Assembly: GCA_036170915.1 (NCBI GenBank)
Contig: JAVHQC010000034.1
Coordinates: forward strand, 32,001-96,000
From: Cyanobacteria bacterium auto_48_18
Lineage (GTDB): Bacteria; Cyanobacteriota; Vampirovibrionia; Obscuribacterales; Obscuribacteraceae
DNA length: 64,000 nt
Direction of reading: 5' to 3'
Position 1 is the first letter of the stretch, and the number at the start of each line of letters is the position of its first letter. Below the pieces are notes generated by a model. The model was not told the DNA's origin, did not search any database, and saw nothing but the letters and a program-made list of their open reading frames with translations. This document shows positions 664 through 64,000 of this stretch, piece by piece. The position numbers and the translations under genes were made by a program.

Positions 664-665
664 AT

Positions 666-1805: not shown

Positions 1806-1876
1806 TATCAACCCTCTAATTTTCCAGCATAATGATATCAAATGATAAACTAGGCCGTCTTCGCGCAGGTTATGAA

Positions 1877-2833
1877 ATGCGGCTTTTTTCCTGCAAAATC
1901 CACAAAAGCCAGGCTCATTTAATACTTGCCCTGCTGTTTGTCGCAGCTATGTATTCGACTGGCACAGTCAACGCTTTTAAAACTTACACTTTTGCTGGTG
2001 GAGCCATTCATGAGAATATTACCCGCACGGCGCTGGTGAGCGGCGGTGCAAAGATTAGCAAGCCGAGTTTTACCGTTATAAATAAGGGCAATTATAGCCA
2101 GGATGCTCTAGGCTCACCCGAATTTTTGAACGACAGTCACCATTTTGATAACTGCAAAATCAAAGAGAGTTTGGCTTATGTAGAAAGTTGCTACAGCGAG
2201 ATCAGGCATCATTTATGCCTTGCCGGCAAGAACAAGACAGACCAGCTTTTCGTTTTGCGCAAATTTGGGCAATTGTTGCATCCATTGCAAGATTTCTATT
2301 CTCATTCAAATTATGTGGAATTACAGCTGGCGAAGAGAAGTAATTTGCAGCCTGCTCAGCTGCCTTTAGTTGATTGGAAGGCCATACCACCAGTGGTGCA
2401 AACAGGCTTTTTCTATTTCAAAGACAATACCAGTAACGAAGTTTTTATGGGAGCCAATCCATTTACAGCTAGCAATCCTAGCCGCGATCTGGTCACGCCG
2501 CTGCTGGTTAAATGTGGCTTTTGTCGTCCTGGCACCAGATATGCCACCAGCGCTGAGTATGCGCTAATTAAAACTTTTGATCAGCGACTTAAATATGTCT
2601 GCAATGCAAAACTTTCTTTAATGCATCGCGACGTCAACAAAGACAATGATGCTACTGAAGAAGGCAAAATTATCAACCCCAGCACTGGCACTACGTTATT
2701 TGCTTACGCCGAGAATCTTGCTGTTCGTGAAACTGCCAGGCAATGGCAGCGGTTGGAGAACGAAGTAAAAGGCCAGTGCTCACCGGTGGAAGCGCCAAGA
2801 ATTATCAAAGCCTTGCGGGCGGGTTTTAACTAA
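1877..2833 (+). CDS. Secreted HET-C/VWA7 N-terminal-like protein (zinc-dependent phospholipase C/P1 nuclease-like fold)
   Basis: Signal-peptide-like N-terminus; motifs HENIT, HHFDNC, GQLLHPLQDFYSHSNYVEL, H..VNKD. Start placed at ATG 1877 (uncertain). Confidence 0.7.
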   Translation: MRLFSCKIHKSQAHLILALLFVAAMYSTGTVNAFKTYTFAGGAIHENITRTALVSGGAKISKPSFTVINKGNYSQDALGSPEFLNDSHHFDNCKIKESLAYVESCYSEIRHHLCLAGKNKTDQLFVLRKFGQLLHPLQDFYSHSNYVELQLAKRSNLQPAQLPLVDWKAIPPVVQTGFFYFKDNTSNEVFMGANPFTASNPSRDLVTPLLVKCGFCRPGTRYATSAEYALIKTFDQRLKYVCNAKLSLMHRDVNKDNDATEEGKIINPSTGTTLFAYAENLAVRETARQWQRLENEVKGQCSPVEAPRIIKALRAGFN

Positions 2834-2858
2834 CATGGATTAGAGCTTACCGAATTGC

Positions 2859-5186
2859 TCACTCTTTTGTTGTCGGAGACGCTGGATACTCAAAGCGGTC
2901 GAGAAGGCCGGCGTCTTTCTCATGGTCTGGCTTCATAACTGGCGGTCTCAGCGTCTTTAGTTGTTTGAATTTGCGCAATACTTTCATATAGTCGGTGTCT
3001 AATTTGCAATTATCATAGAATTTGAGCACGCGTAATTGTTTGGCCGGCAAAAATTGCTCCAACTCGCTGTTGTGGATAGTCAAACTGGCCAGCTCAAGCA
3101 TTCTTAGATGTTCTAATTTGGCGATGGTGGCCCATTGTTTTTTAGAGAGCGTAAATTCATACATAAAAAGGTCTCGTACCTGGTTGCCTTTTTGCCAGGC
3201 TTGCAGAATTGGTTCGATACTGGCTGGGCCAGCTATGCTGACAGAAGTCCACTGAGGCAAATATTTACATTTTGCCACTAGTGTGTAATCGGTGTCAGAG
3301 CCAAACTTAATTGACTTTAGATTTGGTAGATCATCTAGATAGTGAACGTCACCCGGTAACATCGGAGTATCGCGGAGGCTTAAATCGACAAGTGATGTTA
3401 ATTTAGATACGTAAGGCAGTAGGTCTTCGCTCAGGCCATCAACTGTCCAGAAGTCCAGGCCTTGCAGATCGTCTTTTCGAAAATGAGCGAGCAAATGTGG
3501 TCGGCTGGCAAACTCGCTACTGGCCTTAAGGTTAATTGCGCTATCCGCCGGTACATCGCAAAGGCCCTGGGCTTTCAATTTTATCTCTTTGCCGCGTTCG
3601 AAGTACGAAATTGTTCCCAGGCTAAAATCCTCAGGAAATTCAAATCGTTTGACCCGGCGCCCATCTATGCTAATCAGCCTTGAATAATATTGTGGTTTCT
3701 TTTGAACCTCTGCTGGAGGCTGTGCTGGCGCTTTGGGTGCTGAGAAATAACTCCAGGCAAATGCTGCCACACCTGCTAACAACAAAGTAACAATACCGGC
3801 CACCAGAAGTGGTGCGCCGGTATTATCAGAATTGGAACGTGAGTGAGAATTAGACTTTTTAGAAGATGGTTTAGACCCATTCGCAAGAGCCGCTTTTCTG
3901 GCTGCTACCGGTGCATAGTCGGCAACACTCTTGCCCTCTTTGATACGTTGTAAATCAAGGGCCATTTCTTTGGCCGATTGATAACGCTCACGGGGCAGTT
4001 TGGCCAGGCACTTACCAATAACAATATCGAAGCCGTCAGGAAATTTTGTGCTGGTAACTTCAGACAGAAGTGGTGGCTCTTGCTCTTCGTGCATCATGGC
4101 AATTTCTAAAGACGAATCGGCCTCAAAGGGCACAAAACCAGTAAGCGTCTCAAATAGCGAGCAACCTACCGAATAAATATCTGAGCGCAAATCTATTTCA
4201 CCACCAGTGCATTGCTCTGGGCTCATGTAATAAGGGCTGCCAAAAATCTCTCCCACCTGGGTTAGTTTCTGCCCTTCATCAATTTTGAGCAACTTAGAAA
4301 TACCGAAATCGAGAATTTTAACTGAGGCAGCACTGATGGTGGCACCATGGCAAATGAAAATGTTGGCCGGCTTGATGTCGCGGTGCACAATACCATTGCG
4401 GTGGGCATATGCCAGGCCGTCTAATACTGCCAGAAATACTTCGATTGACTCTTTAACTGTCAGAGGTCCATCGTCAAACAAAATTTGCTCTAAATTGCGA
4501 CCTTGCAAATAATCCATGGAGTAGTAAAAAACAGACTTTTCATGAATGCCGAGATCGTACACGTTGACAAGATTGGGGTGATTTAAAGCGGCCAATATTT
4601 TCGCTTCTGTTTGAAAGCGTTGCCAGTACGTGGCGCTTATCAGACTCGGTTCAAGAATTTTCAAGGCGAACTGGCGCCGCAAAGAAAGGTGTTCGGCTAG
4701 GTAAATTACACCCATGGCGCCAGCACCGATTTCTTTTTCTATCTTAAATGTGCCACCAATAATAGTGCCTGGGCCGATGACAATATTGCCATTGGCAGTG
4801 GGCAGCATTGGTTTAAATGTTTGGGTTAATGGTCGCTTCTGTCGAGTACGCTCACCTGAGCGCGTGCGGCTCTTGCCCGTACCACTTGTACCCGTACTAT
4901 TTTTGCCGCCGCGGGAACGAGCAAATTTTGGCTCCAGGCACTGGCAACGCAGTTCTTTAAATAAATAAGCGGTAAACGAGCCAACTTTTTGATCCACCGG
5001 GCACGATTTTCCGCAATTAAGGCAAATGCGATTGTCGCTTTGTTTTGTATCGCTGGTATTGCCGACAGCATTACCAGCGCCGTTCTTGTGGCATTGACAA
5101 TATTTTTCTTGAAAGAAATAAGACGTGAGCGAACCAGCTCTGGTAGAGGCTTGTGATTTTCCGCAGGTTCGGCAAATTACACTCAT
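2859..5186 (-). CDS. Receptor-like Ser/Thr kinase (2x Cys4 repeat - kinase - TM - LRR), array copy 7 of 7 in transcription order
   Basis: GAGAMG, ALK, HRDIKPAN, DFG, GSPYYMSPE; TM LLVAGIVTLLLAGVAAFAWSYF; C-terminal LRRs. ATG at 5186 matches paralog N-termini better than the track's TTG at 5210. Confidence 0.93.
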   Translation of the reverse strand: MSVICRTCGKSQASTRAGSLTSYFFQEKYCQCHKNGAGNAVGNTSDTKQSDNRICLNCGKSCPVDQKVGSFTAYLFKELRCQCLEPKFARSRGGKNSTGTSGTGKSRTRSGERTRQKRPLTQTFKPMLPTANGNIVIGPGTIIGGTFKIEKEIGAGAMGVIYLAEHLSLRRQFALKILEPSLISATYWQRFQTEAKILAALNHPNLVNVYDLGIHEKSVFYYSMDYLQGRNLEQILFDDGPLTVKESIEVFLAVLDGLAYAHRNGIVHRDIKPANIFICHGATISAASVKILDFGISKLLKIDEGQKLTQVGEIFGSPYYMSPEQCTGGEIDLRSDIYSVGCSLFETLTGFVPFEADSSLEIAMMHEEQEPPLLSEVTSTKFPDGFDIVIGKCLAKLPRERYQSAKEMALDLQRIKEGKSVADYAPVAARKAALANGSKPSSKKSNSHSRSNSDNTGAPLLVAGIVTLLLAGVAAFAWSYFSAPKAPAQPPAEVQKKPQYYSRLISIDGRRVKRFEFPEDFSLGTISYFERGKEIKLKAQGLCDVPADSAINLKASSEFASRPHLLAHFRKDDLQGLDFWTVDGLSEDLLPYVSKLTSLVDLSLRDTPMLPGDVHYLDDLPNLKSIKFGSDTDYTLVAKCKYLPQWTSVSIAGPASIEPILQAWQKGNQVRDLFMYEFTLSKKQWATIAKLEHLRMLELASLTIHNSELEQFLPAKQLRVLKFYDNCKLDTDYMKVLRKFKQLKTLRPPVMKPDHEKDAGLLDRFEYPASPTTKE

Positions 5187-5199
5187 GTCTATGAACTCT

Positions 5200-7536
5200 T
5201 CATGAATCAATACTCTTTAGTTTTGGCAGCGCTTTTTTTAGTTCTTCTACATCGCTTTCATTCAAAAGATCTGGAGGCAATATTAGATCAGTCAGATTCT
5301 TGAATAGCTTCAGCTCTTTCAGGCAGGTTCTATCTAGGTTTAACGCGGTGCGGATGGTTAAATGGGTGAGATTTTTTAGGGCTGATAATTGGTGCAAATC
5401 ATCGCTGTCGAGAGGAACACTACGGAAACTCAAACTTCTCAAATTTTCCCATTTTGATATGGTTGCAATGTCGGCTTTTGGCAGTTTCATATAACCAAGC
5501 CCCAATACGATTAAATCATGATTATTGCTCAGCTTGTCTAAAATTGGAGTGATGTTGCCCACGTGCCTCAAACTTATGGCCTCTATGCGTCTTATGGTTT
5601 GGCTTTCTGCTAAAGGAACAATTGCACTCTGGAGCGGATCTATTTTAAGACTGCGCAAATGCACAAGCTCGTCTAAATATTTGACACTATCAGCTGTAAA
5701 TTCTGTGTCGGTCATTTCCAGGGTTATAAGCGATTTCAGTCTGGCGACGTAGGGCATTATGGTATCGCTATTGGGCTCTACAGTTGGCAGCTCCAGGTGT
5801 GTGAGATCGTTTGGTGCAAAATAAGAAAGCAGTTGAGGATGCCCTGAGACATTGGCGTTGGCATATAGATTGAGCTCTTGATTGGCTGATAGATTTACTT
5901 GCCCTGTGGCCTGTATTCCGTTAATTGTGCCAAGAGAAAAGGCTATGGGGAAATAGAATATTTTGTTCAGTTTTTCGTCTGTACGCAATTTGGCTGCATA
6001 ATTTTGAGGATGGCTGGCGAGAAATTTCTTTATCTCAGTAGCTTCTGGCCCGTCTATTTCTGAGAAAATCGATAGAGATTTGTTCCCGATGTCCTTCAAA
6101 ACCCCAGATCGCTCTTGTGTATAGGGCGTGTGTATTTTAGGAGCTGAAGGTGCAGGCCCTCGGTTCAAGCTGAACCAGAAAATGCCTGCGGACGCCGAGC
6201 TCATTAGCACCACAAATAGACCGACTAAAACTACAGGAAAATTCGTAGCTTCATTTTTGGCGTCATGGAGATCTTCTTTTGTCACTATGGGTGGTGCCAT
6301 TACTGCCTTGTCGTCTCTTGCCCGCTCAAGGTCAAGAGCCAGTTCTTTAGCCGACTGGTAGCGGTCGCGCGGTAATTTTGCCAGACATTTAGCAATAATC
6401 TGCTCAAAGGAAGGTAAATCAAGATCGCTAACATCTAAAAGTAGGGGCGGCTCCTTTTCTTGATGCATCAGTCCAGTATCAACAGACGACTTACCGTCAA
6501 AAGGCACACAGCCGGTGAGCGTCTCAAACATAGAGCAACCCACCGAATAGATGTCCGACCGCAAGTCAACAGTGCTGCCCATGCACTGTTCGGGGCTCAT
6601 ATAGTATGGGCTGCCAAAAATCTCTCCGGCGGCAGTCAGCTGTTGATTGTCGTGGGTAAGCTTCGAGATGCCGAAATCAAGAATTTTTACTTGCTCATTA
6701 TCGCTGCCGGCTTTCGCGCAAAGGAAAATATTGGCGGGTTTAATGTCACGGTGTACGATACCGTTGCGATGCGCGTAGGCCAGTCCATCAAGCACTTGCA
6801 GGAATATATCAATGGTGTGCTCTGGTGATAGTGGGCCTTCTCTCACTAGCCGATCTTCTAAATTTTCACCCTGCAAATAGTCCATTGAGTAATAAAAAAT
6901 AGAATTCTGGTGAATGCCCAGATCATATACATTGACTAAATTTGGATGTTTAAGGGCCGCCAGGGTTTTTGCTTCAGATTGAAAACGTAGCCAATAGGTG
7001 TCGCTCACTAAATTAGGAGCGAGAATTTTCAAAGCGAATTTGCGATGCAAAGCCAGGTGCTCTGCCAGGTAGACAACCCCCATACCGCCTTCACCAATTA
7101 GAGACTCAATTTTAAACGTGCCACCAATAACAGTGCCAATGCCTATAGCTTCGGCGCTGCCTGAATTTTCTAGTTGCTCTCTGACATTGTGGGCTAATTT
7201 TCGCCTGATTGTGTTTCTGGCGCTTGTGGTGCTGTGAGAGTTTTTGCCTCTGTGCGACTGAGCAAACTTTGGCGAAGTGCATTGGCAGCGCAATTCTTTA
7301 AAAAGAAAAGCTGTGAAAGATCCGGCTTTGCGATCTCGCGGCCGCGACTTGCCACATTTGAGGCAAATTTGGTTATTTTCTGCCAGGCCCGATTGACGGT
7401 TTCTATTGGGCGCATCTTTGACGTTATTATTGCACTGACAAAAGTTGTGTTGAAAAAAATAGCCTGTTATAGACCCGGCCCTACCGGTCGCCGGAGGCTT
7501 ACCGCAGCTTTGACAAAGTGTAGGCTGGTCGTTCAT
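5200..7536 (-). CDS. Receptor-like Ser/Thr kinase (2x Cys4 repeat - kinase - TM - LRR), copy 6
   Basis: GEGGMG, HRDIKPAN, DFG, SPE; TM VVLVGLFVVLMSSASAGIFWF; LRRs such as LKNLTHLTI, FKNLTDLIL. Confidence 0.93.
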   Translation of the reverse strand: MNDQPTLCQSCGKPPATGRAGSITGYFFQHNFCQCNNNVKDAPNRNRQSGLAENNQICLKCGKSRPRDRKAGSFTAFLFKELRCQCTSPKFAQSHRGKNSHSTTSARNTIRRKLAHNVREQLENSGSAEAIGIGTVIGGTFKIESLIGEGGMGVVYLAEHLALHRKFALKILAPNLVSDTYWLRFQSEAKTLAALKHPNLVNVYDLGIHQNSIFYYSMDYLQGENLEDRLVREGPLSPEHTIDIFLQVLDGLAYAHRNGIVHRDIKPANIFLCAKAGSDNEQVKILDFGISKLTHDNQQLTAAGEIFGSPYYMSPEQCMGSTVDLRSDIYSVGCSMFETLTGCVPFDGKSSVDTGLMHQEKEPPLLLDVSDLDLPSFEQIIAKCLAKLPRDRYQSAKELALDLERARDDKAVMAPPIVTKEDLHDAKNEATNFPVVLVGLFVVLMSSASAGIFWFSLNRGPAPSAPKIHTPYTQERSGVLKDIGNKSLSIFSEIDGPEATEIKKFLASHPQNYAAKLRTDEKLNKIFYFPIAFSLGTINGIQATGQVNLSANQELNLYANANVSGHPQLLSYFAPNDLTHLELPTVEPNSDTIMPYVARLKSLITLEMTDTEFTADSVKYLDELVHLRSLKIDPLQSAIVPLAESQTIRRIEAISLRHVGNITPILDKLSNNHDLIVLGLGYMKLPKADIATISKWENLRSLSFRSVPLDSDDLHQLSALKNLTHLTIRTALNLDRTCLKELKLFKNLTDLILPPDLLNESDVEELKKALPKLKSIDS

Positions 7537-7566
7537 GGGCGGAAGGCTATTTTCCTTTTGTCATGC

Positions 7567-9933
7567 CTAGTCTATCCTTTTTAAACGCGGGAGTGCGCCA
7601 TAAAGTTCTTTTTCATACGCATCTTCTACAAGCTGATCTGGCAACACCAGCCTTTGCAATTTGGAGAATTTTTTGATGCTTACAAGGCAGCCGGCATCAA
7701 GGTTTGTATTGCGAGCTATGTTTAACAGGTCCAGGTCTTTTAGGGTCGTCAATTTTTCCAGATCGTCATTGGTGATCAGCGTGCTTGTTATGCTCAGCTT
7801 TTTCAAGTTGTGCATCCCGGCTAGCTTGACAATGTCTGCTCGGTTGAACTGACAACCTTGAAGCGAAAGCTCGATTAAATCGGGGCATTTAGCCAATTTG
7901 TCCAATATAGGTGAAATGCTCTGGTTGCTGTTAATTTCCAGCCTCTGCAGCTGTTGCCAAATTTTTGATTTGGCGATGGCCTCAGGGTCCATGGTCCAGG
8001 CGATGATCATGAGCCTTCTTAAACTCTGCATACGATCCAGGTAGACCACGTCATCAGGTAGAAAAATCATTTCGCTGATGCGCAGATGGGTCAGAGAAGT
8101 AAATTTAGCTAGACGGGGCAAGAAGTCGCTGGATTTCTTACCCGCAGCTCGAAGTTCAATGCTTATCAGATCATCGTTTTGAAAATAATCAAGCAATTGT
8201 GGATGTTCGCCCACGCTAATGCTGGCCATTAACGCCACTGACTTTTCTGGTGGAATTATGCATTTACCTAGAGCAGGTGTTTCAGGAGTACCTGATGGAT
8301 AAAAAGTTAAAGCACCAAGTGAAAAGTCACGAGGAAAGTAGAAGGCGCGCTCTATCTTGCCATTGACGATGCTCTCTTTTTTATAATTTGCTGGTTTACT
8401 TTGCAGGAAAGCTTCTACTTTGGCGCTGTCCGGATCGCTATCGATGTCTTTTTCGGTATTTTCCAGCGCTTTGGCATTGAGAACTGCTGCGTCATCTAAA
8501 TCTTTGCCAAGAGAATTTGACCCTTTTAGGGGTGTAGCTATTTCGCTTGTGGTATTGATAAATATAAAATAGGCAATACCAGCTGCCAGAGCTACCGATA
8601 TGGTTGAAATTGTAATTAATGCAACCGGAATCGAGTTTTTCACTAGCTTTTCAGCGCCGCCGCTGTCGTCTTCAAGCCTTGCAGTTGAGGGCAAAGCGGC
8701 AATGCTTTTACCGGCTTTGATGCGTTGGAGATCCAGAGCCAGTTCTCTTGCTGATTGATAGCGGTCGGCGGGCAATTTAGCCAGGCATTTATCAATGACA
8801 ATTTCAATTGCTTCTGGAATTTGCTTTTTGCTTACTTGCGAAATCAGTGGTGGCAATTCTTCTTCATGAAGCAAGCCAATTTCAAGGGCAGACCCACCAT
8901 CAAAAGGCACATAGCCACTGAGAGTTTCGAACATAGAACAGCCTACAGAATAAATATCAGATCGCGCGTCCACCGCTTTACCCGTGCATTGCTCGGGGCT
9001 CATGTAGTATGGGCTACCAAATACTTCACCGGCGGCGGTGAGAGTTTGAGCTTCACTGCCAACGGTAACTGATTTGGAAATGCCAAAATCTAGAATCTTT
9101 ACCTCGAGTGCGCTGGCGTTGTTTGAGCAAATGAAAATATTTGCTGGTTTAATATCCCGGTGAATAATGCCATGCCTATGGGCATAGGAGAGGCCATCGA
9201 GTACCAGGAGGAATATGTCAATTGTATAACTCAGGCTTTGGGCGCCCTCTTCTGCCAATATTTCCTCGAGATTACTTCCTTGAAGATAATCCATCGAATA
9301 GTAAAAAACAGATTTTTCGTGAATGCCCAGATCGTAAACATTTACCAGGCTCGAATGGTTTAGCGCAGCAAGCGTCTTAGCTTCAGATTGAAAACGTAGC
9401 CAGTATTGCTCACTAAGGCCTGGCGAAAGTATTTTCAAGGCAAATTTTTGCTGCATGGCCAGGTGCTGGGCCAGATATACAACCCCCATGCCACCTTCGC
9501 CTATGATCTTTTCGATTTTGAAAGTGCCACCAATGACAGTGCCGGGCCCAATGGCTGTTTGTGTACCAGCATTTTCTAGCTGGGCCGCAACGCTTCTGGC
9601 CAGGCGTCGGCGTTTAGTGTAACGTTCTGAAGAACTGGTGCTGCTAAATTTTCTATTCTGGGATGTGGTGGCAAATCGTGGTGTCACGCAGTGGCAGCGG
9701 AGCTCTTTAAAGAGAAAGGCTGTAAAAGAGCCGGCTTTTCTCTCATGGGGCCGTGACTTGCTGCAATTGAGGCAGACTTGCTGGCGACCACCTAAATTAG
9801 AAGTTTGCTTTAAGTCAGAGTGCTCATTCTTTTCATGGCATCGGCAATAATTATGCTGAAAAAAGTATGACGTAATTGAACCGGCTCTGCTGCTTGGTTC
9901 TGGTTTACCGCAATTTGGACAATTGTTAGGCAT
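7567..9933 (-). CDS. Receptor-like Ser/Thr kinase (2x Cys4 repeat - kinase - TM - LRR), copy 5
   Basis: GEGGMG, HRDIKPAN, DFG, SPE; TM VALITISTISVALAAGIAYFIFI; LRRs. Confidence 0.93.
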   Translation of the reverse strand: MPNNCPNCGKPEPSSRAGSITSYFFQHNYCRCHEKNEHSDLKQTSNLGGRQQVCLNCSKSRPHERKAGSFTAFLFKELRCHCVTPRFATTSQNRKFSSTSSSERYTKRRRLARSVAAQLENAGTQTAIGPGTVIGGTFKIEKIIGEGGMGVVYLAQHLAMQQKFALKILSPGLSEQYWLRFQSEAKTLAALNHSSLVNVYDLGIHEKSVFYYSMDYLQGSNLEEILAEEGAQSLSYTIDIFLLVLDGLSYAHRHGIIHRDIKPANIFICSNNASALEVKILDFGISKSVTVGSEAQTLTAAGEVFGSPYYMSPEQCTGKAVDARSDIYSVGCSMFETLSGYVPFDGGSALEIGLLHEEELPPLISQVSKKQIPEAIEIVIDKCLAKLPADRYQSARELALDLQRIKAGKSIAALPSTARLEDDSGGAEKLVKNSIPVALITISTISVALAAGIAYFIFINTTSEIATPLKGSNSLGKDLDDAAVLNAKALENTEKDIDSDPDSAKVEAFLQSKPANYKKESIVNGKIERAFYFPRDFSLGALTFYPSGTPETPALGKCIIPPEKSVALMASISVGEHPQLLDYFQNDDLISIELRAAGKKSSDFLPRLAKFTSLTHLRISEMIFLPDDVVYLDRMQSLRRLMIIAWTMDPEAIAKSKIWQQLQRLEINSNQSISPILDKLAKCPDLIELSLQGCQFNRADIVKLAGMHNLKKLSITSTLITNDDLEKLTTLKDLDLLNIARNTNLDAGCLVSIKKFSKLQRLVLPDQLVEDAYEKELYGALPRLKRID
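9838..9913. repeat. 76-bp near-identical segment, copy A (other copy 12194-12269)
   Basis: Manual alignment: 73/76 identical with 12194-12269; encodes the first Cys4 repeat of kinase copy 5. Confidence 0.85.
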
Positions 9934-9940
9934 AATGGTT

Positions 9941-12289
9941 CTACAAAATCACCATCACTAATTTTGGCATAGTTCTTTGCAGTTCTTGATCATCGCTGGG
10001 TTCTAGAATGTCTCCGGCGATCACAAGCGTTTTCAGATGGTCAAACTTTTTTATAGAGTGCACGCATGCCCTGGTCAATTTGGTTGCCTGGCCAAGATTC
10101 AAATATGTTAGTTGTTTCGCACCAGTCAGCTGTTCTAAGTTTGCATCGGTAAGAAGTATATTCGTCAGTGTTAGTTTTGTCAGATTTTTTACGCTGCAAA
10201 TAGAATCAATATCCTCTGAGGCTAGTGTGGTATCGCGCAAACCTAAACTCCAGAGCACTTCGCTATTTTTCAGTGCTCTCAATATGGGTGAGACGTTTTT
10301 CGTATGCGCCAGAGTAAGCATTTGTAATTGAAGCAAGATAGATGAGTTTGCCATTGGCTCAACTGCTTCTGGCAAAAGTTCTACGTCTAATATGCGTAAT
10401 TTTTTTAAGCTACTCAAAATTTCGATGTTTTTTTTATCCAGTGGTACATAGAGTAATTCTAGATCGGTCAGGCTACCAAGCTTTGCAATATATGGCACAA
10501 CGTCAGGCTTTTGGCCGCTCACAGCACCAAATCTGAGTGTGGTTAGGTCGTCAGCCTTAAAGTATTGCAGCAACTCTGGTCTAGTGATGGTGGCCTGACC
10601 GGCAGTGAACATTGCAGGCGCGTCAGCCGGAATGATTATTTCGCCTGATGCTGGTCGAGTATCACCATAGTCAAACTCACCGAGAGAGAATGTTTTTGGG
10701 AACGAAAATTTCTTTTTCTTTTCTCCATTGACAGTAATGACAGAAGAATAGTCTGACGGTTTGCTGAGCAAGTAATCTTTAATTAGACTTGAGTTCGTTT
10801 CTTCGCCGCCCTTACCTAGAAAGTCTAAAGAAGCAGAGTCAAGGTTGTCCCTCATGGGCAAATCGGCTACATCTTTTGAAAACTTGTGCTCGGCTACGGC
10901 TTTAGAATGACTATTGGTAAAAGTATTCCAGACAAAAAGCAAAGCGGTCACCGTGCAAGCGCTCACTGCCACCATTGCTAAAATTGGCACAAGCGCCGGT
11001 CTGGCCCCCACTGGTTCACCGGTGTGGGCAACCGCTTCACTGGCAGAGCGTCTCGCGTGGGCAATGTCTTTGCCTTCCTTGATGCGCTCTAAATCAAGAG
11101 CCAACTCTTTAGCCGATTGATAGCGGTCATGGGGAAGTTTGGCCAGGCATTTATCAATTACATAATCGATTGACTGCGGCAGTGGAGTTTGAGTTTTTGT
11201 CACTGCTGATAGTATTGGTGGCAGATTTTCTTGATGCATGAGAGCGATTTCAAAAGCTGTTTTCGCTTCGAAAGGCACAAAGCCGCTTAGTGTTTCAAAC
11301 ATGGTGCAGCCAACGGCATAAATGTCTGAGCGCGCATCTACCGCCTCTCCGTTACATTGCTCAGGGCTCATATAATAAGGACTGCCGAAAATTTCGCCCA
11401 CAGCGGTGAGCTGCTGAATTTCATCTGCTTTAGTCAATTTAGAGATGCCAAAGTCAAGAATTTTTATTTCGTTGTCATCACAGAGAAAAATATTGGCCGG
11501 CTTGATATCGCGGTGAATGATACCGTTGCGATGTGCGTAGGCCAGACCTTCGAGTACTGCTAGAAAAATTTCAATAGTTCGATTCAGGCTTAATGCGCCT
11601 TCCCGGGTTAGGACGTCTTCGAGATTTTCACCCTCGAGAAAATCCATAGAGTAATAGAACACTGATTCTGCGTGAATGCCAAGATCATAAACTTTAACCA
11701 GATTTGCATGACTGAGTGCAGACAATATTTTGGCCTCGCTTTGAAAGCGTAACCAGAGTTTTTCACTGGTCAACCCTGCTCTCAGCACTTTAAGCGCTAC
11801 CACCCGCTGCAGCGCTATGTGCGTGGCCAGATATACCACTCCCATACCACCTTCACCAATAACAGAATTGACTTTGAAAGTGCCACCAATTATAGTGCCG
11901 GGCGAAATTTCGGCCAGGCTTTGCTCGTGGACGAGTTTAGAGAGTATGTCTTTTGCCTGGCTGCGTTTTTGTTCGATTCTTTCTCGCGTACCTGTACGAC
12001 TGAAGTTGTCAGTTGAAATTGCAAATTTTGGATGGGCGCATTGACAGCGCAGTTCTTTAAAGAGGAAACCTGTAAATGAGCCTGCTTTTTGCTCAAGTGG
12101 CCTCGATTTGCCACAATTGACGCAGATCTGATTGATGGCCGTTGTGCCACCAGCTTTATTCTTTCGGTCACCACTATTTTCTTGCTCAATTTTGCATCGG
12201 CAATAATTATGCTGAAAAAAGTATGACGTGATTGAACCGGCCCTGATGCTTGGTTCTGGTTTACCGCAAGTTTTGCAAATCACGTCCAT
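9941..12289 (-). CDS. Receptor-like Ser/Thr kinase (2x Cys4 repeat - kinase - TM - LRR), copy 4
   Basis: GEGGMG, HRDIKPAN, DFG, SPE; TM ILAMVAVSACTVTALLFVW; LRRs. Confidence 0.93.
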   Translation of the reverse strand: MDVICKTCGKPEPSIRAGSITSYFFQHNYCRCKIEQENSGDRKNKAGGTTAINQICVNCGKSRPLEQKAGSFTGFLFKELRCQCAHPKFAISTDNFSRTGTRERIEQKRSQAKDILSKLVHEQSLAEISPGTIIGGTFKVNSVIGEGGMGVVYLATHIALQRVVALKVLRAGLTSEKLWLRFQSEAKILSALSHANLVKVYDLGIHAESVFYYSMDFLEGENLEDVLTREGALSLNRTIEIFLAVLEGLAYAHRNGIIHRDIKPANIFLCDDNEIKILDFGISKLTKADEIQQLTAVGEIFGSPYYMSPEQCNGEAVDARSDIYAVGCTMFETLSGFVPFEAKTAFEIALMHQENLPPILSAVTKTQTPLPQSIDYVIDKCLAKLPHDRYQSAKELALDLERIKEGKDIAHARRSASEAVAHTGEPVGARPALVPILAMVAVSACTVTALLFVWNTFTNSHSKAVAEHKFSKDVADLPMRDNLDSASLDFLGKGGEETNSSLIKDYLLSKPSDYSSVITVNGEKKKKFSFPKTFSLGEFDYGDTRPASGEIIIPADAPAMFTAGQATITRPELLQYFKADDLTTLRFGAVSGQKPDVVPYIAKLGSLTDLELLYVPLDKKNIEILSSLKKLRILDVELLPEAVEPMANSSILLQLQMLTLAHTKNVSPILRALKNSEVLWSLGLRDTTLASEDIDSICSVKNLTKLTLTNILLTDANLEQLTGAKQLTYLNLGQATKLTRACVHSIKKFDHLKTLVIAGDILEPSDDQELQRTMPKLVMVIL
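12194..12269. repeat. 76-bp near-identical segment, copy B (other copy 9838-9913)
   Basis: Manual alignment: 73/76 identical with 9838-9913; encodes the first Cys4 repeat of kinase copy 4. Confidence 0.85.
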
Positions 12290-12293
12290 ATGG

Positions 12294-14627: not shown

Positions 14628-14718
14628 TAAGGGCCCTGGAACAACGGCCTCTAAGTATATCTTGTCTAGTGACTAATCTAGAGATAGCTGCGGCCAGCCT
14701 GCCGAGATGTCATTTCGG

Positions 14719-17133: not shown

Positions 17134-17143
17134 TTCATCACCA

Positions 17144-19531
17144 TTAAAACTGGGCCTTGTCTGCCTGGCGTATGCGCTTTAGCTTTGGCAAGGCGCGAAA
17201 TAATTGTTGCTCTTGCATGGCATCGAAAAGTCCGTCAGGCAAAAGTAGAGTTTTTAGATTTTTGAACTTTTTCAAAGCTTCAAGACACGAGCTGTCGAGC
17301 CTTGAACCCTGGTGTAGAGCAAGTGACTTCAGTCTCGGTAATTGTGATAGCTTATCGAGGGTTTCTTTGGTGAGAGTCATATTCTTGAAAGATAGACTTT
17401 TTAAATATTCTATTGATGCAATATTTTTCACATCAGCTTCTGTGAGCACAATATGATCCAGGTCAAGGCAGTCTAGGTTCGTGCTTGATGACAGCCGGGC
17501 CAACACTTCTGAAATATTAGACGGCCCGCGGAGACTGAGGCGAGAAAGCTGAGTTAGCATTTTGGTTTTGGCAAAATAAGACTGCCCTGCAGGAGTCAAT
17601 TCGATATGCAGTGCTGCAAGTTTAGTCAGCGGTTTAAGATATGGCAAGTCGGCATATTCGAAGCTGATGCCAGGCAGACTTAAATAATCAAGCTCGGTCA
17701 TTCTCGACACGAAAGGCATGACTCTGGTGCTGTCGCCTTTGCCTATAATAATTCCTTTTAAATCGTCTTTATAAAACTTCTTCAGCAGTTCAGGGAACTC
17801 GCCTACAAGCGGATTAGTGTTGAGGCTGAGGTAAGCGTCAGCCGGGACGATGCACTCGCCCCGAGCGTCAACGGTGTAGGGCATGCCTTCTTTAAAATAG
17901 GTCAAGGTGCCGATAGAAAAGCTTGGTGAAAAAGAGAACACTTTCAGTTGCTTTTCGTTCGAGCGCACTGTGTTTATGAGATAAGGTGCGGCTGATTTGG
18001 AGAATTCTTTTGCGCCAATACCATCGTCATCAACCACCGCTGGTAGCGTCAGGCTTGGACTTTTGGCAGTATCTTCCGCTTGTTCAATTCTCGGCACAAG
18101 TTCTGGTTGAGGAGCGTGATCGCGAGTAAAAACCCAGATTAATGCGGCACTGAGCGGCAACGAAAGCACGGCGGCAAAAACCAGCAATGTTGCGGGCGAA
18201 AGAATATTGGTGGTGTGCTCACCGCTGTTACCATTCTCATGAACCCGGGCCGATTGCTTACCACTCAATGATGAAAAAGCAGTTACTTCTTTGCCTTGTT
18301 TAATACGCTCAAGATCAAGAGCTAATTCTTTAGCAGACTGGTAACGATCACGGGGCAGCTTGGCCAGACATTTGGCAATGACTAAATCTATGGATGCCGG
18401 AAATTCTTTATCACTGACGGCGGAAAGATTAGGCGGATCTTTTTCTTCATGCATCAATGCAATTTCTACAGATGAATCTGCCTCAAAAGGAACATAACCG
18501 GTAAGGGTTTCAAAAATGGAGCAGCCCACAGAATACAGATCTGAGCGCGCGTCTACCGTCTCGCCCATGCATTGTTCTGGGCTCATATAAAAAGGGCTGC
18601 CGAAAACCTCACCTACGGCTGTAAGCTGCTGTGAGTCATCACCTTCGCTCACCAGTTTCGAAATGCCAAAATCGAGTATTTTAATTGCTGGCAAGACGCC
18701 GGCGGTTTCAGACGCACAAATAAAGATATTGGCAGGTTTGATATCACGGTGCACAATGCGCTGCCGGTGTGCGTATGCCAGTGCGTCAAGCACAGGCAGA
18801 AAGATCTCAATGGTATGCTCCAGGCTCTGGGCACCGTCCTGCGCCAAGATGTCTTCCAGGTTGCGACCTTTCAGATAATCCATAGAGTAGTAAAAAAGTG
18901 TTTTCTCGTGCACACCCAGATCGTAAACGTTAACCAGGTTGGGGTGATTTAAAGCTGCCAGTATTTTTGCTTCTGCCTGAAAGCGTAGCCAGTATTCTTC
19001 GCTGACAAAATCAGGGGCCAATATTTTTAGAGCATACTTTTTTTGCATTGCCTGGTGGTAGGCAAGATAGACAACACCCATACCACCTTCGCCAATCATT
19101 GATTCAATTTTGAACGTGCCACCAATAACGGTGCCCGGACGCAACGGCGTACCAGCTTCAATGCTTGCATTTTCTAGTTGCGCCTTTAAAATTTCAGTTG
19201 AGCGTCTTCTTTGTTTGATACGCTCGGCCGTGAGCGTGCGGCTGTTGTCAGACTTACTTTCGGTGCGGGTGCGAAACTTGGGCCGGGCGCACTGGCATCG
19301 CAGTTCTTTAAAAAGAAATGCCGTGAATGAGCCGGCCTTTTGGCCGGTGGGGCGGGACTTACCGCATTTTAAACAAATGGCTTCTTCGCGAACAATTGTC
19401 GCCTGCGACTTTTTTGACGATACTTCTTTTTGACATTGGCAGAAATTGTGCTGAAAGAAATAAGAAGTCATGGAACCAGCGCGAGCGGTGGCTTCAGGTT
19501 TGCCGCAGTTATGACAAAGATCTTTCGCCAT
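17144..19531 (-). CDS. Receptor-like Ser/Thr kinase (2x Cys4 repeat - kinase - TM - LRR), copy 1
   Basis: GEGGMG, HRDIKPAN, DFG, SPE; TM LLVFAAVLSLPLSAALIWVF; LRRs. Confidence 0.93.
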   Translation of the reverse strand: MAKDLCHNCGKPEATARAGSMTSYFFQHNFCQCQKEVSSKKSQATIVREEAICLKCGKSRPTGQKAGSFTAFLFKELRCQCARPKFRTRTESKSDNSRTLTAERIKQRRRSTEILKAQLENASIEAGTPLRPGTVIGGTFKIESMIGEGGMGVVYLAYHQAMQKKYALKILAPDFVSEEYWLRFQAEAKILAALNHPNLVNVYDLGVHEKTLFYYSMDYLKGRNLEDILAQDGAQSLEHTIEIFLPVLDALAYAHRQRIVHRDIKPANIFICASETAGVLPAIKILDFGISKLVSEGDDSQQLTAVGEVFGSPFYMSPEQCMGETVDARSDLYSVGCSIFETLTGYVPFEADSSVEIALMHEEKDPPNLSAVSDKEFPASIDLVIAKCLAKLPRDRYQSAKELALDLERIKQGKEVTAFSSLSGKQSARVHENGNSGEHTTNILSPATLLVFAAVLSLPLSAALIWVFTRDHAPQPELVPRIEQAEDTAKSPSLTLPAVVDDDGIGAKEFSKSAAPYLINTVRSNEKQLKVFSFSPSFSIGTLTYFKEGMPYTVDARGECIVPADAYLSLNTNPLVGEFPELLKKFYKDDLKGIIIGKGDSTRVMPFVSRMTELDYLSLPGISFEYADLPYLKPLTKLAALHIELTPAGQSYFAKTKMLTQLSRLSLRGPSNISEVLARLSSSTNLDCLDLDHIVLTEADVKNIASIEYLKSLSFKNMTLTKETLDKLSQLPRLKSLALHQGSRLDSSCLEALKKFKNLKTLLLPDGLFDAMQEQQLFRALPKLKRIRQADKAQF

Positions 19532-19534
19532 TCG

Positions 19535-19571
19535 GATGGTTAGTTGCCCCAGTATTCAGCAACTAACCATC
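19535..19571. promoter_or_regulatory. 13-bp perfect inverted repeat immediately upstream of the kinase array (candidate operator or 5'-UTR hairpin)
   Basis: GATGGTTAGTTGC-N11-GCAACTAACCATC, ending 3 nt before the ATG at 19531; overlaps a minus-strand TATGAT. Confidence 0.5.
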
Positions 19572-19598
19572 ATAGCGCCATCAAGGCAAAAAACAACT

Positions 19599-21284: not shown

Positions 21285-21565
21285 TGATTGGTTCTCTTTT
21301 AGAGTAGTCTTTTAACCGGAATAAAAATGTTAATTCAGGCACACGACAACGCAAGTGCTGCGCGCTGATTGCGCGCCACTCCAAGTTGGTGGTTGTGTGT
21401 TATTACCGTTATAACTCTGCGAAGTTAAGGCGCCGATCTATTCCTTAACCTCAAAAGCTTGTGTTAACTGACAAATTTCGCTGGGTGCTGCATTAGACTG
21501 GTGCTGTTAGAGCAAGTTAGACCTTGGTAAAGACTGGGGATGAAAAGTTAAGACAAGCTGAGTAA

Positions 21566-36518: not shown

Positions 36519-36617
36519 ACGAAAGATTCCTGAAAGAGAGACGTGGTGCGGTTTTCAGCACTATTGAAAACTGCTGAAGTTATCTCTATCAATAGCATAC
36601 TTGGAGCAGAAGTTGGG

Positions 36618-54407: not shown

Positions 54408-54425
54408 AAGCAAAGATCACAGACC

Positions 54426-63999: not shown

Positions 64000-64000
64000 A

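What the first reader, a model, noticed from the sequence alone, without database searches (positions are those of the whole stretch)
2859..19531. Tandem array of seven LRR receptor-like kinases: candidate bacterial diversified pattern-recognition locus
Seen: seven consecutive same-strand paralogs with gaps of 4-91 bp and the same architecture (2x Cys4 repeat, Hanks kinase with GxGxxG/ALK/HRDIKPAN/DFG/SPE all intact, one TM, a conserved cap, roughly 7-8 LRRs). The kinase halves align almost residue for residue, while the post-TM stalk and the LRRs are strongly diverged. None is pseudogenised. Known: bacterial Hanks kinases with ectodomains (PknB-PASTA) are usually dispersed, whereas clustered LRR receptor kinases with variable LRRs are typical of plant immune loci, there with the LRR N-terminal. 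Inference: this is a birth-and-divergence receptor repertoire in which different periplasmic LRRs detect different ligands (prey, competitor, phage or self/non-self cues) and feed a shared phospho-output. Ligands and substrates are not visible in the sequence.
Basis: partly seen in the sequence, partly recalled or inferred. Interest (0 to 1): 0.9.

Follow-up and report, generated by a model that had tools for sequence, protein, structure and literature searches.

The report
Bacterial LRR receptor kinase gene array
A groundwater relative of cyanobacteria carries a row of a dozen membrane protein kinases that share nearly the same inner signalling half but have very different outward-facing leucine-rich-repeat sensors, a layout that resembles plant receptor kinase clusters but arose separately.

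Summary
Seven intact same-strand genes (777-804 aa) lie at window 2859-19531. Each has two Cys4 modules, a PknB-type Hanks kinase with all catalytic motifs, one membrane helix, a beta cap and eight 24-residue LRRs. The window cuts the array: the contig carries 12 tandem copies (5+7) plus a 13th nearby.

The organism is an Obscuribacteraceae MAG. Its genome holds 36 kinase-TM-cap-LRR genes and 18 kinase-less cap-LRR ORFs, 13 of them with signal peptides. The sensor is therefore extracytoplasmic.

The 13 copies, plus two orthologues from the nearest relative, form one clade, so this is a lineage-specific expansion. Mean identity is 71% in the kinase and 29% in the LRRs. The predicted concave face is the most variable part.

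Synonymous sites are saturated, so positive selection could not be tested. Where dN/dS can be estimated it is below 1.

I read the array as a tandemly expanded set of receptor Ser/Thr kinases with diverged periplasmic ligand specificities and a shared cytoplasmic module. The immune or pattern-recognition reading is untested.

This scan found the same family earlier in another Obscuribacter-like genome (e1-3885030). My literature searches found no paper on it.

The parts
2859..5210 (-). K06: receptor Ser/Thr kinase, 783 aa from the TTG at 5210. The likely true start is the ATG at 5186.
   Evidence: ORF and translation. Pkinase E 5e-48. Own HMMs for N-term, kinase and ectodomain all match.
5200..7536 (-). 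K07: receptor Ser/Thr kinase, 778 aa
7567..9933 (-). K08: receptor Ser/Thr kinase, 788 aa. Used as the reference copy for residue numbering.
9670..9927 (-). K08 residues 3-88: two ~32-residue Cys4 modules (consensus KLCKNCGKSRPSKRAGSFTSFLFQELRCQC). Predicted to bind zinc. No Pfam or PDB relative found.
   Evidence: Invariant Cys, G-S-x-T and F positions in 52 sequences. Module HMM. No Pfam hit above cut-off. No PDB hit by sequence or by fold. The model is only moderate, pLDDT 67.
8689..9561 (-). K08 residues 125-415: Hanks-type RD kinase domain, PknB-like
   Evidence: Pkinase E 7e-47. Catalytic residues invariant. Nearest solved structures are M. tuberculosis PknB at E 1e-79, then StkP and PknA.
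8557..8631 (-). K08 residues ~435-459: single transmembrane helix
   Evidence: Hydrophobicity scan, H = 2.14 over 19 residues
8173..8382 (-). K08 residues 518-587: conserved beta-rich N-terminal cap of the ectodomain (motif F-x-F-P-x-x-F-S-L-G)
   Evidence: AlphaFold model strands. F, F, P, G, A and G are nearly invariant in 95 sequences.
7570..8172 (-). K08 residues 588-788: eight 24-residue leucine-rich repeats (register x-L-x-x-L-x-L-x-x...)
   Evidence: Model pLDDT 96.4. Repeat register. Foldseek hits to InlA, Skp2, SDS22 and Roco LRR. LRR_4 28.5 bits against a cut-off of 27.
9941..12289 (-). K09: receptor Ser/Thr kinase, 782 aa
12294..14627 (-). K10: receptor Ser/Thr kinase, 777 aa
14719..17133 (-). 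K11: receptor Ser/Thr kinase, 804 aa
17144..19531 (-). K12: receptor Ser/Thr kinase, 795 aa. It has a 75%-identical orthologue in the nearest relative, G009.
19599..21284 (-). DUF4153 membrane protein directly upstream on the same strand. It marks the boundary of the array and has the same adjacency in G009.
   Evidence: PF13687 E 1e-59. 85% identical in G009:C203, next to the K12 orthologue.
666..2833 (.). Island that separates the two blocks of the array. It holds a BNR/sortilin-like ORF (666-1841, minus strand) and a VWA7_N/Het-C-like ORF (1832-2833, plus strand). A ThiF-rhodanese gene lies just left of the window.
   Evidence: Pfam. The same genes flank family members in G009.

Best explanation
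The seven genes are the right-hand block of a 12-gene tandem array, with a 13th copy nearby. All encode single-pass receptor Ser/Thr kinases in an Obscuribacteraceae bacterium.

**Architecture.** Each protein has a cytoplasmic signalling half: two small Cys4 (probably zinc) modules and a PknB-type RD kinase. Then come one membrane helix, a poorly conserved stalk, and a periplasmic sensor made of a conserved beta cap and eight LRRs.

**Origin.** The array arose by lineage-specific tandem duplication within a family of about 36 such receptors per genome. After duplication the sensor diverged, most of all on the LRR concave face. The cytoplasmic half stayed under strong purifying selection, and at least once it was homogenised or swapped between neighbouring copies.

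**Inferred mechanism.** Each paralogue binds a different ligand that can reach the periplasm. Occupancy changes the oligomeric state. The kinase autophosphorylates as PknB does, and it passes the signal to substrates common to the subfamily through the conserved Cys-module-plus-kinase half.

**Shown:** gene structure, domain folds, phylogeny, the divergence pattern and the extracytoplasmic location of the domain family.

**Inferred:** ligand diversity, dimerisation, zinc binding and a shared output.
For: - **Gene structure and motifs:**
- **Array extent and genome-wide family:** 88 ORFs match the kinase HMM, 18 of them weakly. Of these, 36 have kinase plus ectodomain, 15 also carry the N-terminal modules, and 13 of those 15 lie on contig C34.
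- **LRR fold:** model pLDDT 96.4 and Foldseek.
- **Kinase type:** nearest solved structures are PknB, StkP and PknA.
- **Topology:** there is one hydrophobic helix after a ~430-residue N-terminal half that lacks a signal peptide. The same cap-LRR domain also occurs as 18 kinase-less ORFs, and 13 of these start with a signal-peptide-like segment directly before the cap motif.
- **Lineage-specific expansion:** the 13 copies plus two G009 orthologues form one clade. SH-aLRT support is 100 on full length and 92 on the kinase alone. The ectodomain data do not reject the clade, p-AU 0.29.
- **Turnover:** the N-terminal-module subfamily has 4-15 copies in 15 genus genomes and is dispersed in the one complete genome. 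Only K05 (63%) and K12 (75%) have reciprocal best hits in G009. The assembled positional equivalents of K06, K07 and K11 there are not their orthologues.
- **Divergence pattern:** mean identity is 71% in the kinase and 29% in the LRR. Entropy is 2.67 bits at concave x positions, 2.08 at convex-exposed positions and 0.99 in the core (Mann-Whitney p 9e-8).
- **Constraint:** dN/dS is 0.04-0.06 in the kinase and 0.08-0.25 in the LRR where it can be estimated. Between K12 and its orthologue the concave positions are 77% identical against 59% for the rest of the LRR. This points to a maintained binding face.
- **Modularity:** K02 has a cytoplasmic half 80-93% identical to K01/K03/K04, but its ectodomain is only 28-29% identical to theirs.
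- **N-terminal module:** it is found almost only in front of Hanks kinases, in 26 of 30 sampled representatives. The C-terminal sensor varies between LRR, TPR and Sel1.
- **Assembly:** independent contigs from the same sample tile the array with no differences and at flat depth.
Against: - No ligand, substrate or expression data exist. No RNA run was listed.
- Positive selection could not be tested. pS is about 0.55-0.84 even for the closest pairs.
- The higher variability of the concave face is also what relaxed constraint on exposed strand residues would give.
- In 56 of 61 pairs the concave face diverges faster than the rest, in cross-genome pairs as well as within-genome ones. It is therefore not specific to duplication.
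- The flanks of the membrane helix show no clear positive-inside bias. The topology rests on the need of the kinase and Cys modules for the cytoplasm and on the signal-peptide-bearing homologues.
- Both genomes compared are incomplete MAGs. G000 is 86% complete. G009 has 330 contigs that break inside its array, so orthologues that seem missing may simply be unassembled.
- A periplasmic sensor in a presumably diderm cell can only meet ligands that cross or belong to the envelope.
Confidence: 0.7

Rival explanations
1. The array is an innate-immunity-like pattern-recognition repertoire. Its LRRs are under ongoing diversifying selection to detect prey, competitor, phage or non-self molecules.
For: - There is a tandem, lineage-specific expansion with copy-number variation.
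- The concave face is the most variable part.
- Recent paralogues K01/K03/K04 are 25-30% identical at concave positions against 50-66% elsewhere in the LRR.
- Pseudogenised family members exist in the relative: 7 of 54 matches in G009 contain stops.
- A class II pAgo with its nuclease lies 1.5 kb from the 13th copy.
- Kinase-less secreted cap-LRR proteins parallel plant receptor-like proteins.
Against: - No dN/dS above 1 was found anywhere it could be estimated.
- K12's concave face is better conserved with its orthologue than the rest of its LRR.
- All copies are RD kinases. The abstract of PMC8463890 (seen in the listing) associates innate immune signalling with non-RD kinases.
- The PADLOC hits (PD-T4-6, mad6, MkoA) cover only the generic kinase domain.
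- The array's immediate neighbours are not defence genes.
- A periplasmic sensor cannot directly meet most phage or prey surface molecules.
Confidence: 0.13
2. The receptors monitor the cell's own envelope or mediate cell-cell or kin contact. The ectodomains would bind the kinase-less secreted cap-LRR proteins or envelope components rather than foreign ligands.
For: - The genome has 18 kinase-less cap-LRR ORFs, 13 with signal peptides and one with five cap-LRR units.
- The cap is conserved across the family, with nearly invariant F, F, P, G, A and G. It could be a shared docking site.
- The closest characterised bacterial receptor kinases (PknB and StkP) sense cell-wall fragments. That last point is recalled knowledge, not tested here.
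Against: No interaction was tested. The strong divergence of the concave face among paralogues is not needed for a single envelope ligand.
Confidence: 0.1
3. The copies are largely redundant. The conserved kinase halves reflect gene conversion between neighbours, and the sensor halves drift under relaxed constraint without distinct specificities.
For: - K02 is a mosaic. Its cytoplasmic half is near-identical to those of its neighbours K01, K03 and K04, while its ectodomain is unrelated to theirs.
- Kinase identity reaches 88-91% within K01/K03/K04, and pS is somewhat lower in the kinase (0.55-0.60) than in the LRR (0.60-0.83).
Against: - In the window's seven copies, kinase identities are a uniform 64-70%, with saturated synonymous sites. 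They are therefore held by purifying selection, not by recent conversion.
- All 13 ORFs are intact.
- The LRR core leucines are conserved, entropy 0.99 bits.
- LRR dN/dS is 0.08-0.25, not about 1.
- Orthologue pairs keep 59-77% identity in the LRR.
Confidence: 0.06
4. The array is an assembly or binning artefact of a metagenome-assembled genome.
For: The source is a MAG, 86% complete with 2.4% contamination. The only run that holds the sequence is probably its own source sample.
Against: - The copies are only 42-71% identical as proteins, far too diverged to be collapsed or duplicated by an assembler.
- A second assembler's contigs tile window 1-20000 in four overlapping pieces with no differences, at even depth of 12-16.
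- Flanking genes and family members are syntenic in G009.
- Arrays of 3-5 occur in other genomes, including complete or near-complete ones.
Confidence: 0.01

Closest known systems
Bacterial PknB-type receptor Ser/Thr kinases (M. tuberculosis PknB/PknA, S. pneumoniae StkP; also PknD with a beta-propeller sensor)
   Same: The order is the same: an N-terminal cytoplasmic Hanks RD kinase, one membrane helix and a C-terminal extracytoplasmic sensor. The kinase profile's best solved matches are PknB (E 1e-79), StkP and PknA.
   Different: - The sensor is a cap plus eight LRRs, not PASTA repeats or a propeller.
- Two Cys4 modules precede the kinase.
- There are 36 such receptors per genome and a 12-gene tandem array, rather than one or a few dispersed genes.
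Plant LRR receptor-like kinases and receptor-like proteins (e.g. FLS2, EFR, BAK1 clusters)
   Same: - An LRR ectodomain, a single membrane helix and a Ser/Thr kinase.
- Large lineage-specific tandem expansions.
- A conserved kinase with variable LRR solvent-exposed strand positions.
- Kinase-less secreted or anchored LRR relatives in the same genome.
   Different: - The domain order is inverted, with the kinase N-terminal and the LRR C-terminal.
- The kinase is PknB-like by its nearest solved structures, not Pelle/RLK.
- The LRR motif lacks the plant N-x-L-x-G-x-I-P part.
- All copies are RD kinases.
- This is best read as convergence.
The same family seen earlier in this scan (finding e1-3885030: four-gene LRR receptor kinase array in another Obscuribacter-like genome)
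   Same: The architecture is the same, the count of about 35-40 receptors per genome is similar, and the binding face was reported there as the fastest-changing part. All three points were re-derived independently here.
   Different: - This locus has 12+1 copies.
- It belongs to the subfamily with the N-terminal double Cys4 module.
- It forms a clade private to G000 and G009.
- It shows a domain-level mosaic copy.
Roco / LRRK proteins (LRR-Roc-COR-kinase), e.g. Chlorobium tepidum Roco
   Same: An LRR and, in some members, a kinase in one bacterial protein. The Roco LRR is among the structural matches (ranks 21 and 23).
   Different: There is no Roc GTPase or COR domain. Here the LRR lies across the membrane from the kinase, whereas Roco proteins are cytoplasmic (that last point is recalled).
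PD-T4-6 and other defence-associated Ser/Thr kinases in PADLOC
   Same: Strong HMM matches, E 1e-84.
   Different: The matches cover only the kinase domain (profile positions ~3-290). No defence-specific domain or gene partner is present. Any PknB-like kinase would be expected to match in this way, though I did not run such a control.

Membership tests
Hanks-type (eukaryotic-like) bacterial Ser/Thr kinases, PknB-like | Protein kinase domain with glycine loop, VAIK lysine, HRD, DFG and APE/SPE motifs | tested here: met
   Pkinase E 1e-47 to 1e-52 in all seven. The motifs are invariant in 7 and in 52 sequences. The best solved matches are PknB, StkP and PknA.
Hanks-type (eukaryotic-like) bacterial Ser/Thr kinases, PknB-like | Receptor topology: cytoplasmic kinase, one TM helix, extracytoplasmic C-terminal sensor | tested here: met
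   There is one hydrophobic helix in 12 of 13 copies. K05 has a second, weak segment inside its LRR. The sensor domain also occurs with signal peptides in 13 of 18 kinase-less ORFs. This is a prediction only; no experiment was done.
Hanks-type (eukaryotic-like) bacterial Ser/Thr kinases, PknB-like | PASTA repeats as sensor (PknB/StkP/PrkC subgroup proper) | tested here: not met
   No PASTA hit in Pfam at E <= 0.1. The sensor is a cap plus LRR.
Leucine-rich repeat proteins | Tandem 20-30-residue repeats with an LxxLxLxx strand, forming a curved solenoid | tested here: met
   Eight 24-residue repeats. Model pLDDT 96.4. Foldseek hits to InlA, Skp2 and SDS22 at E ~1e-7. LRR_4 and LRR_At5g56370 pass the cut-off for the isolated domain.
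Plant LRR-RLK (Pelle/RLK family) | Signal peptide and LRR at the N-terminus, kinase at the C-terminus | tested here: not met
   The order here is Cys modules, kinase, TM, LRR.
Plant LRR-RLK (Pelle/RLK family) | Kinase domain of the Pelle/IRAK/RLK clade | tested here: not met
   The 20 best solved matches are bacterial PknB/StkP/PknA/PknE-type kinases. No phylogeny with plant kinases was built.
Plant LRR-RLK (Pelle/RLK family) | Lineage-specific tandem expansion with variable solvent-exposed LRR positions | tested here: met
   Clade of 15 with support 100. Concave entropy is 2.67 against 2.08 bits. The feature is shared by analogy, not by descent.
Roco/LRRK | Roc GTPase and COR domains between the LRR and the kinase | tested here: not met
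   No Roc or COR hit in Pfam.
Anti-phage defence kinases (PADLOC PD-T4-6) | Membership of a system shown to protect against phage | tested here: inconclusive
   HMM hits are restricted to the kinase domain.
Birth-and-death immune receptor cluster (functional class) | dN/dS > 1 at ligand-contact sites | tested here: inconclusive
   Synonymous sites are saturated (pS 0.55-0.84). Where it can be estimated, omega is 0.08-0.25 in the LRR.

The most novel reading that the evidence does not exclude
Obscuribacteraceae have independently evolved a plant-like surface-receptor system. It comprises dozens of LRR receptor kinases plus secreted kinase-less LRR proteins that act as co-receptors or decoys. 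The 12-gene array is its fast-turnover arm. New sensor specificities for variable biotic ligands (peptides or proteins from competitors, prey or phage that enter the periplasm) would be generated by tandem duplication and ectodomain swapping onto a fixed Cys-module-plus-kinase output.
Probability: 0.2. Interest if true: 0.85.

Novelty: new variant of a known kind. Interest (0 to 1): 0.62.

Why it matters
Bacterial receptor Ser/Thr kinases are known mainly from a few PASTA or propeller sensors per genome. Here a whole bacterial family uses an LRR ectodomain as its main sensor. It has about 36 receptors per 5-Mb genome, kinase-less secreted relatives, and a 12-gene array private to one lineage.

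That is a second, independent invention of the LRR-membrane-kinase receptor logic that plants use. It offers a simple prokaryotic system for asking three questions:
- how LRR specificity diversifies;
- how a single-pass bacterial kinase transmits ligand binding;
- what the uncharacterised double Cys4 module in front of the kinase does.

It also bears on the biology of the uncultured non-photosynthetic relatives of cyanobacteria, whose ecology is poorly understood.

Tried and rejected
- **dN/dS among the paralogues:** synonymous sites are saturated (pS about 0.75). Even the closest pairs (K01/K03/K04, K12 with its orthologue) have pS 0.55-0.84, so no test for omega > 1 was possible.
- **Docking of the N-terminal module on the kinase domain (complex prediction):** no verdict, score 0.00. 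This is neither for nor against binding.
- **Fold of the N-terminal module:** the model reached only pLDDT 67. Foldseek against the PDB gave nothing below E 3.3. The PDB sequence profile gave only E 0.8-0.9 to the zinc-ribbon ribosomal protein L37a/eL43. Pfam gave only Zn_ribbon_3 at 13 bits. The fold stays unassigned.
- **Promoter and terminator scans over 2500-21800:** counts are at the shuffle expectation (25 vs 24.8; 24 vs 23.6), so they say nothing about operon structure.
- **Expression:** no RNA holder was listed. The only run holding the DNA is probably the source sample.
- **Positive-inside rule:** the flanks of the membrane helix carry similar numbers of K/R on both sides, so this is uninformative.
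- **Ectodomain-only tree:** it did not recover the array clade. Four rows were missing, inside a 21-row polytomy. The AU test does not reject the clade, p 0.29.
- **Literature:** two searches failed on a term format and were re-sent. 'Obscuribacter' + 'leucine-rich' found 0 papers. 'Obscuribacter' + 'threonine kinase' found 1 irrelevant paper. 'Melainabacteria' + 'protein kinase' + 'signal transduction' found 9 irrelevant papers. Broader LRR-kinase searches returned only plant, animal and protist papers. In PMC10463195 I read 12 of 24 matched passages, and none describes bacterial LRR Ser/Thr kinases.
- **PADLOC as evidence for defence:** rejected, because the hits cover the kinase domain only.
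Full report
**Names.** I call the 13 copies on contig C34 K00 to K12, in contig order. K06 to K12 are the window's seven:

| Copy | Window coordinates |
|---|---|
| K06 | 2859-5210 |
| K07 | 5200-7536 |
| K08 | 7567-9933 |
| K09 | 9941-12289 |
| K10 | 12294-14627 |
| K11 | 14719-17133 |
| K12 | 17144-19531 |

K01 to K05 lie at G000:C34:19280-31221 and K00 at 5019-7574. The window is C34:32001-96000. Residue numbers are those of K08.

**1. The observation.**
- Seven minus-strand ORFs of 777-804 aa lie at the stated coordinates, without internal stops.
- They align over their full length at 45-51% identity.
- All have a strong Pfam protein kinase domain, E 1e-47 to 1e-52. The glycine loop, ALK lysine, HRDIKPAN, DFG and SPE are invariant, and they remain invariant in 52 family members.
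- Each N-terminus has two copies of a ~32-residue module, CxxCGK...(R/K)AGSxTxxxF...CxC. Its Cys, G-S-x-T and F positions are invariant in 52 sequences.
- One hydrophobic helix follows the kinase.
- The gaps between genes are 4-91 bp. The apparent 11-bp overlap of K06 and K07 disappears if K06 starts at the ATG at 5186, as the alignment suggests.

**2. The C-terminal half is an LRR domain with a cap.**
- At full length the Pfam LRR hits are below threshold. The isolated ectodomain of K08 passes LRR_4 and LRR_At5g56370.
- An AlphaFold model built on 95 ectodomains has mean pLDDT 96.4. It shows a beta-rich cap (K08 518-587) followed by eight 24-residue repeats in the register x-L-x-x-L-x-L-x-x.
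- Foldseek against the PDB returns internalin A, Skp2, SDS22 and the Chlorobium Roco LRR at E about 1e-7.

**3. The window truncates the locus, and the family is genome-wide.**
- A search of the whole assembly with K08 gave 107 matches.
- I built HMMs from the seven copies and ran them on all ORFs of 100 aa or more. They found 88 ORFs with a kinase match, 18 of them weak at 66-110 bits. Of the 88, 36 have kinase plus cap-LRR ectodomain, and 15 of those also carry the N-terminal modules.
- Thirteen of the 15 lie on C34: K00, a block of five, a 3.6-kb island, then the window's block of seven. The island holds ThiF-rhodanese, a BNR/sortilin-like ORF and a VWA7_N/Het-C-like ORF.
- Other smaller clusters exist: four genes on C13, three on C32 and pairs on C8 and C11.

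**4. Organism and distribution.**
- Relatives fetched from named public contigs are labelled Candidatus Obscuribacter, Obscuribacteraceae, Obscuribacterales or Melainabacteria. The only run that holds the DNA is labelled groundwater metagenome.
- The ectodomain profile was found in 22 of 23 further genomes of the same family and in 2 of 2 of a second family of the order. It was found in 0 of 95 genomes from nine other families of the class.
- In a phylum-wide sample it was found in 1 of 150 other genomes, and that hit is a 157-residue fragment at a contig end.
- Tandem arrays of three to five are common in relatives. The 12-gene array is the largest I saw.

**5. Topology.**
- The ~430-residue N-terminal half has no signal peptide. 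It contains Cys4 modules and an ATP-dependent kinase, so it must be cytoplasmic. With a single helix, the cap-LRR lies outside the cytoplasm.
- The charge bias around the helix is uninformative.
- Independent support comes from 18 kinase-less ORFs with the same cap-LRR domain. Thirteen begin with a signal-peptide-like segment that runs straight into the cap motif. I judged the signal peptides by eye from their hydrophobic N-termini, not with a dedicated predictor.

**6. History of the array.**
- I built a maximum-likelihood tree of 58 full-length proteins: the 13 copies, two other G000 members with the module, four G000 members without it, and 39 from other genomes. I dropped ORFs under 700 aa and exact duplicates.
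- The tree puts the 13 copies and two G009 proteins in one clade with SH-aLRT 100, excluding all others.
- The kinase domain alone gives the same clade with support 92. The ectodomain alone leaves it unresolved inside a 21-row clade but does not reject it, p-AU 0.29.
- The array is therefore a lineage-specific expansion.
- Synonymous sites between most copies are saturated (pS about 0.75), so most duplications are old. K01, K03 and K04 (67-71% identical) are the youngest.

**7. Turnover.**
- The module-bearing subfamily has 4 to 15 copies in the 15 genomes of the genus. G000 has the most. In the one complete chromosome (G003) the 13 copies are scattered or in pairs.
- G009 is the nearest relative. 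Its neighbouring proteins are 85% (DUF4153), 88% (AcrB-like) and 80% (ThiF) identical.
- The locus is syntenic in G009 but broken over short contigs:
  - DUF4153, the K12 orthologue and the next copy are on C203;
  - a VWA7-like gene, ThiF and the K05 orthologue are on C235;
  - two family genes, each split into two ORFs, lie next to the other end of the VWA7-like gene on C261.
- Only K12 (75%) and K05 (63%) have reciprocal best hits. The other 11 copies find nothing better than 44-48%.
- Three positional equivalents can be assessed in G009, and none is the orthologue of its G000 counterpart:
  - the copy next to the K12 orthologue is closest to K09 (63%), not K11 (56%);
  - the copy at the K06 position is closest to K01 (62%) in its kinase half, and its ectodomain is no more than 35% identical to any G000 copy;
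  - the copy at the K07 position is closest to K09.
- Outside the array, 11 kinase-plus-ectodomain genes have clean reciprocal orthologues at 62-78%.
- Caveat: both genomes are incomplete, and G009's contigs end inside the array. Some missing orthologues may be unassembled.

**8. Where the divergence sits.**
- Among the 13 copies, mean identity by domain is as follows:

| Region | Mean identity |
|---|---|
| Cys module 1 | 60% |
| Cys module 2 | 71% |
| Kinase | 71% |
| Juxtamembrane/TM/stalk (residues 413-517) | 17-20% |
| Cap | 34% |
| LRRs | 29% |

  My sub-boundaries within residues 413-517 were approximate.
- Within the LRRs, the five strand positions predicted to face the concave surface have mean entropy 2.67 bits. 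Convex-side non-core positions have 2.08 bits and the core leucines 0.99. The Mann-Whitney p is 9e-8, but the positions are not independent.
- In 56 of 61 pairs with at least 40% identity in the rest of the LRR, the concave positions diverge faster than the rest.
- The exceptions include K12 and its orthologue, which are 77% identical at concave positions against 59% elsewhere.
- The young paralogues K01/K03/K04 show the opposite: 25-30% against 50-66%.
- This fits sensor faces that change after duplication and are then kept. It rests on few pairs.
- dN/dS is 0.04-0.06 in the kinase and 0.08-0.25 in the LRR where it can be estimated. In most comparisons dS is saturated. Positive selection is therefore neither shown nor excluded.

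**9. Modularity.**
- K02 lies between K01 and K03. Its Cys modules and kinase are 80-93% identical to K01/K03/K04.
- Its ectodomain is 28-29% identical to theirs and closest to K00, at 38%.
- Either the cytoplasmic half was homogenised by gene conversion or an ectodomain was swapped in.
- In the window's seven copies the kinase identities are an even 64-70%, so there the conservation reflects purifying selection.

**10. The N-terminal module.**
- In G000 it occurs only in this kinase subfamily. Fourteen proteins have two modules and two proteins have one. No free-standing copy was found in six-frame segments of 25 aa or more.
- A profile search of 1.84 billion representative proteins found 428 at E <= 0.001.
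- Of 30 sampled representatives, 26 have a protein kinase domain directly after the module. Their C-terminal parts are LRR, TPR, Sel1 or unassigned. Three others have only LRR or Sel1, and one has no Pfam match.
- The module is thus a kinase-associated cytoplasmic accessory, independent of the sensor type.
- Its fold and role remain open. A complex prediction with the kinase domain gave no verdict.

**11. Comparison with known systems.**
- The kinase profile's best solved matches are M. tuberculosis PknB (E 1e-79), then StkP, PknA and PknE. The proteins are members of the bacterial Hanks receptor-kinase class, but with a sensor not described for it.
- They work like plant LRR receptor kinases in outline, and they share those kinases' genomic behaviour. 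They are not members of that family, for three reasons:
  - the domain order is inverted;
  - the kinase is PknB-like;
  - the LRR motif differs.
- All copies are RD kinases. The abstract of PMC8463890 (seen in the listing) associates non-RD kinases with innate immune signalling.
- The PADLOC matches to PD-T4-6 and others cover only the kinase domain.

**12. Context for the output.**
- The genome has 7 FHA-domain matches and one PP2C_2 phosphatase match, against 88 kinase matches. Many kinases may therefore converge on few downstream parts. This is a hint only.

**13. Assembly.**
- Contigs from a different assembler for the (probably source) sample tile window 1-20000 in four overlapping pieces with no differences, at even depth of 12-16.
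- With protein identities of 42-71% between copies, an assembly artefact is very unlikely.

**14. Prior knowledge.**
- This scan had already reported the family in another Obscuribacter-like genome (e1-3885030). I re-derived its main points here.
- My paper searches found nothing on LRR kinases in Obscuribacter or Melainabacteria. These cover only the open-access library searched. In PMC10463195 I read 12 of 24 matched passages, and none reports bacterial LRR Ser/Thr receptor kinases.

**Verdict.** The duplication-and-divergence receptor reading is well supported. The pattern-recognition or immune reading is possible but has no direct support.

Noticed in passing
L086:15-3472 (G000:C34:15-3472, left of the window): A class II prokaryotic Argonaute (Piwi domain; PADLOC pAgo_II E 1e-254) sits next to its helical-REase partner (DpnII-MboI-like; Aga_Helical-REase E 3e-83). 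This known defence pair lies about 1.5 kb from the 13th kinase copy, K00.
   Followed up: partly
G000 contigs C4, C10, C11, C20, C22, C33, C35, C36 (list); none in the window: There are 18 ORFs with the same cap-LRR domain but no kinase. Thirteen have signal-peptide-like N-termini. One (C36:228699-231509, 936 aa) has five cap-LRR units in a row. They may be soluble partners or decoys of the receptors.
   Followed up: partly
L087:2672-5032 (K02, G000:C34:21672-24032): This is a mosaic copy. Its cytoplasmic half is 80-93% identical to its neighbours K01/K03/K04, but its ectodomain is only 28-29% identical to theirs. That points to gene conversion or an ectodomain swap within the array.
   Followed up: yes
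window 63736-64000 and beyond (G000:C34:95736-98736); also C8, C11, C25, C26, C29, C36; L007:5566-11081, L009:14865-20296, L011, L023, L062: Pairs of adjacent ORFs (about 470-1300 aa) carry a weak, C-terminal kinase-like match of 66-110 bits. In several relatives such a pair lies convergent to, and directly after, an array of module-bearing receptor kinases. Their family was not determined.
   Followed up: no
L098 (G009:C261:1-3667); G009 matches: In the nearest relative, two family genes at the array position next to the VWA7-like gene are each split into two overlapping ORFs. Seven of 54 family matches there contain stop codons. These are either pseudogenes or assembly errors. In G000, 3 of 107 matches contain stops, none of them in the array.
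   Followed up: partly
G000:C16:56390-58506: A kinase ORF (348 aa) and a cap-LRR ORF (386 aa) overlap head to tail. This looks like one receptor kinase split by a frameshift.
   Followed up: no
window 5186-5210: The longest ORF of K06 starts at a TTG that overlaps the end of K07 by 11 bp. The alignment with the other copies favours the ATG at 5186.
   Followed up: partly
whole genome G000: There are 88 kinase-HMM matches but only one PP2C_2 phosphatase match (C25:56740-57312, next to an FHA protein and a kinase) and seven FHA-domain matches.
   Followed up: partly
window 29792-63732: The rest of the window holds ordinary genes:
- a hybrid histidine kinase with PAS and receiver domains (29792-33376);
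- two AcrB-type pumps with an HlyD adaptor (33429-41038);
- two DUF4388 proteins, one with GGDEF (41230-43824, 51016-52611);
- an OmpR-type regulator with a CHASE3 histidine kinase (53733-56216);
- a lysyl-phosphatidylglycerol synthase-like gene (61969-63732).
   Followed up: no
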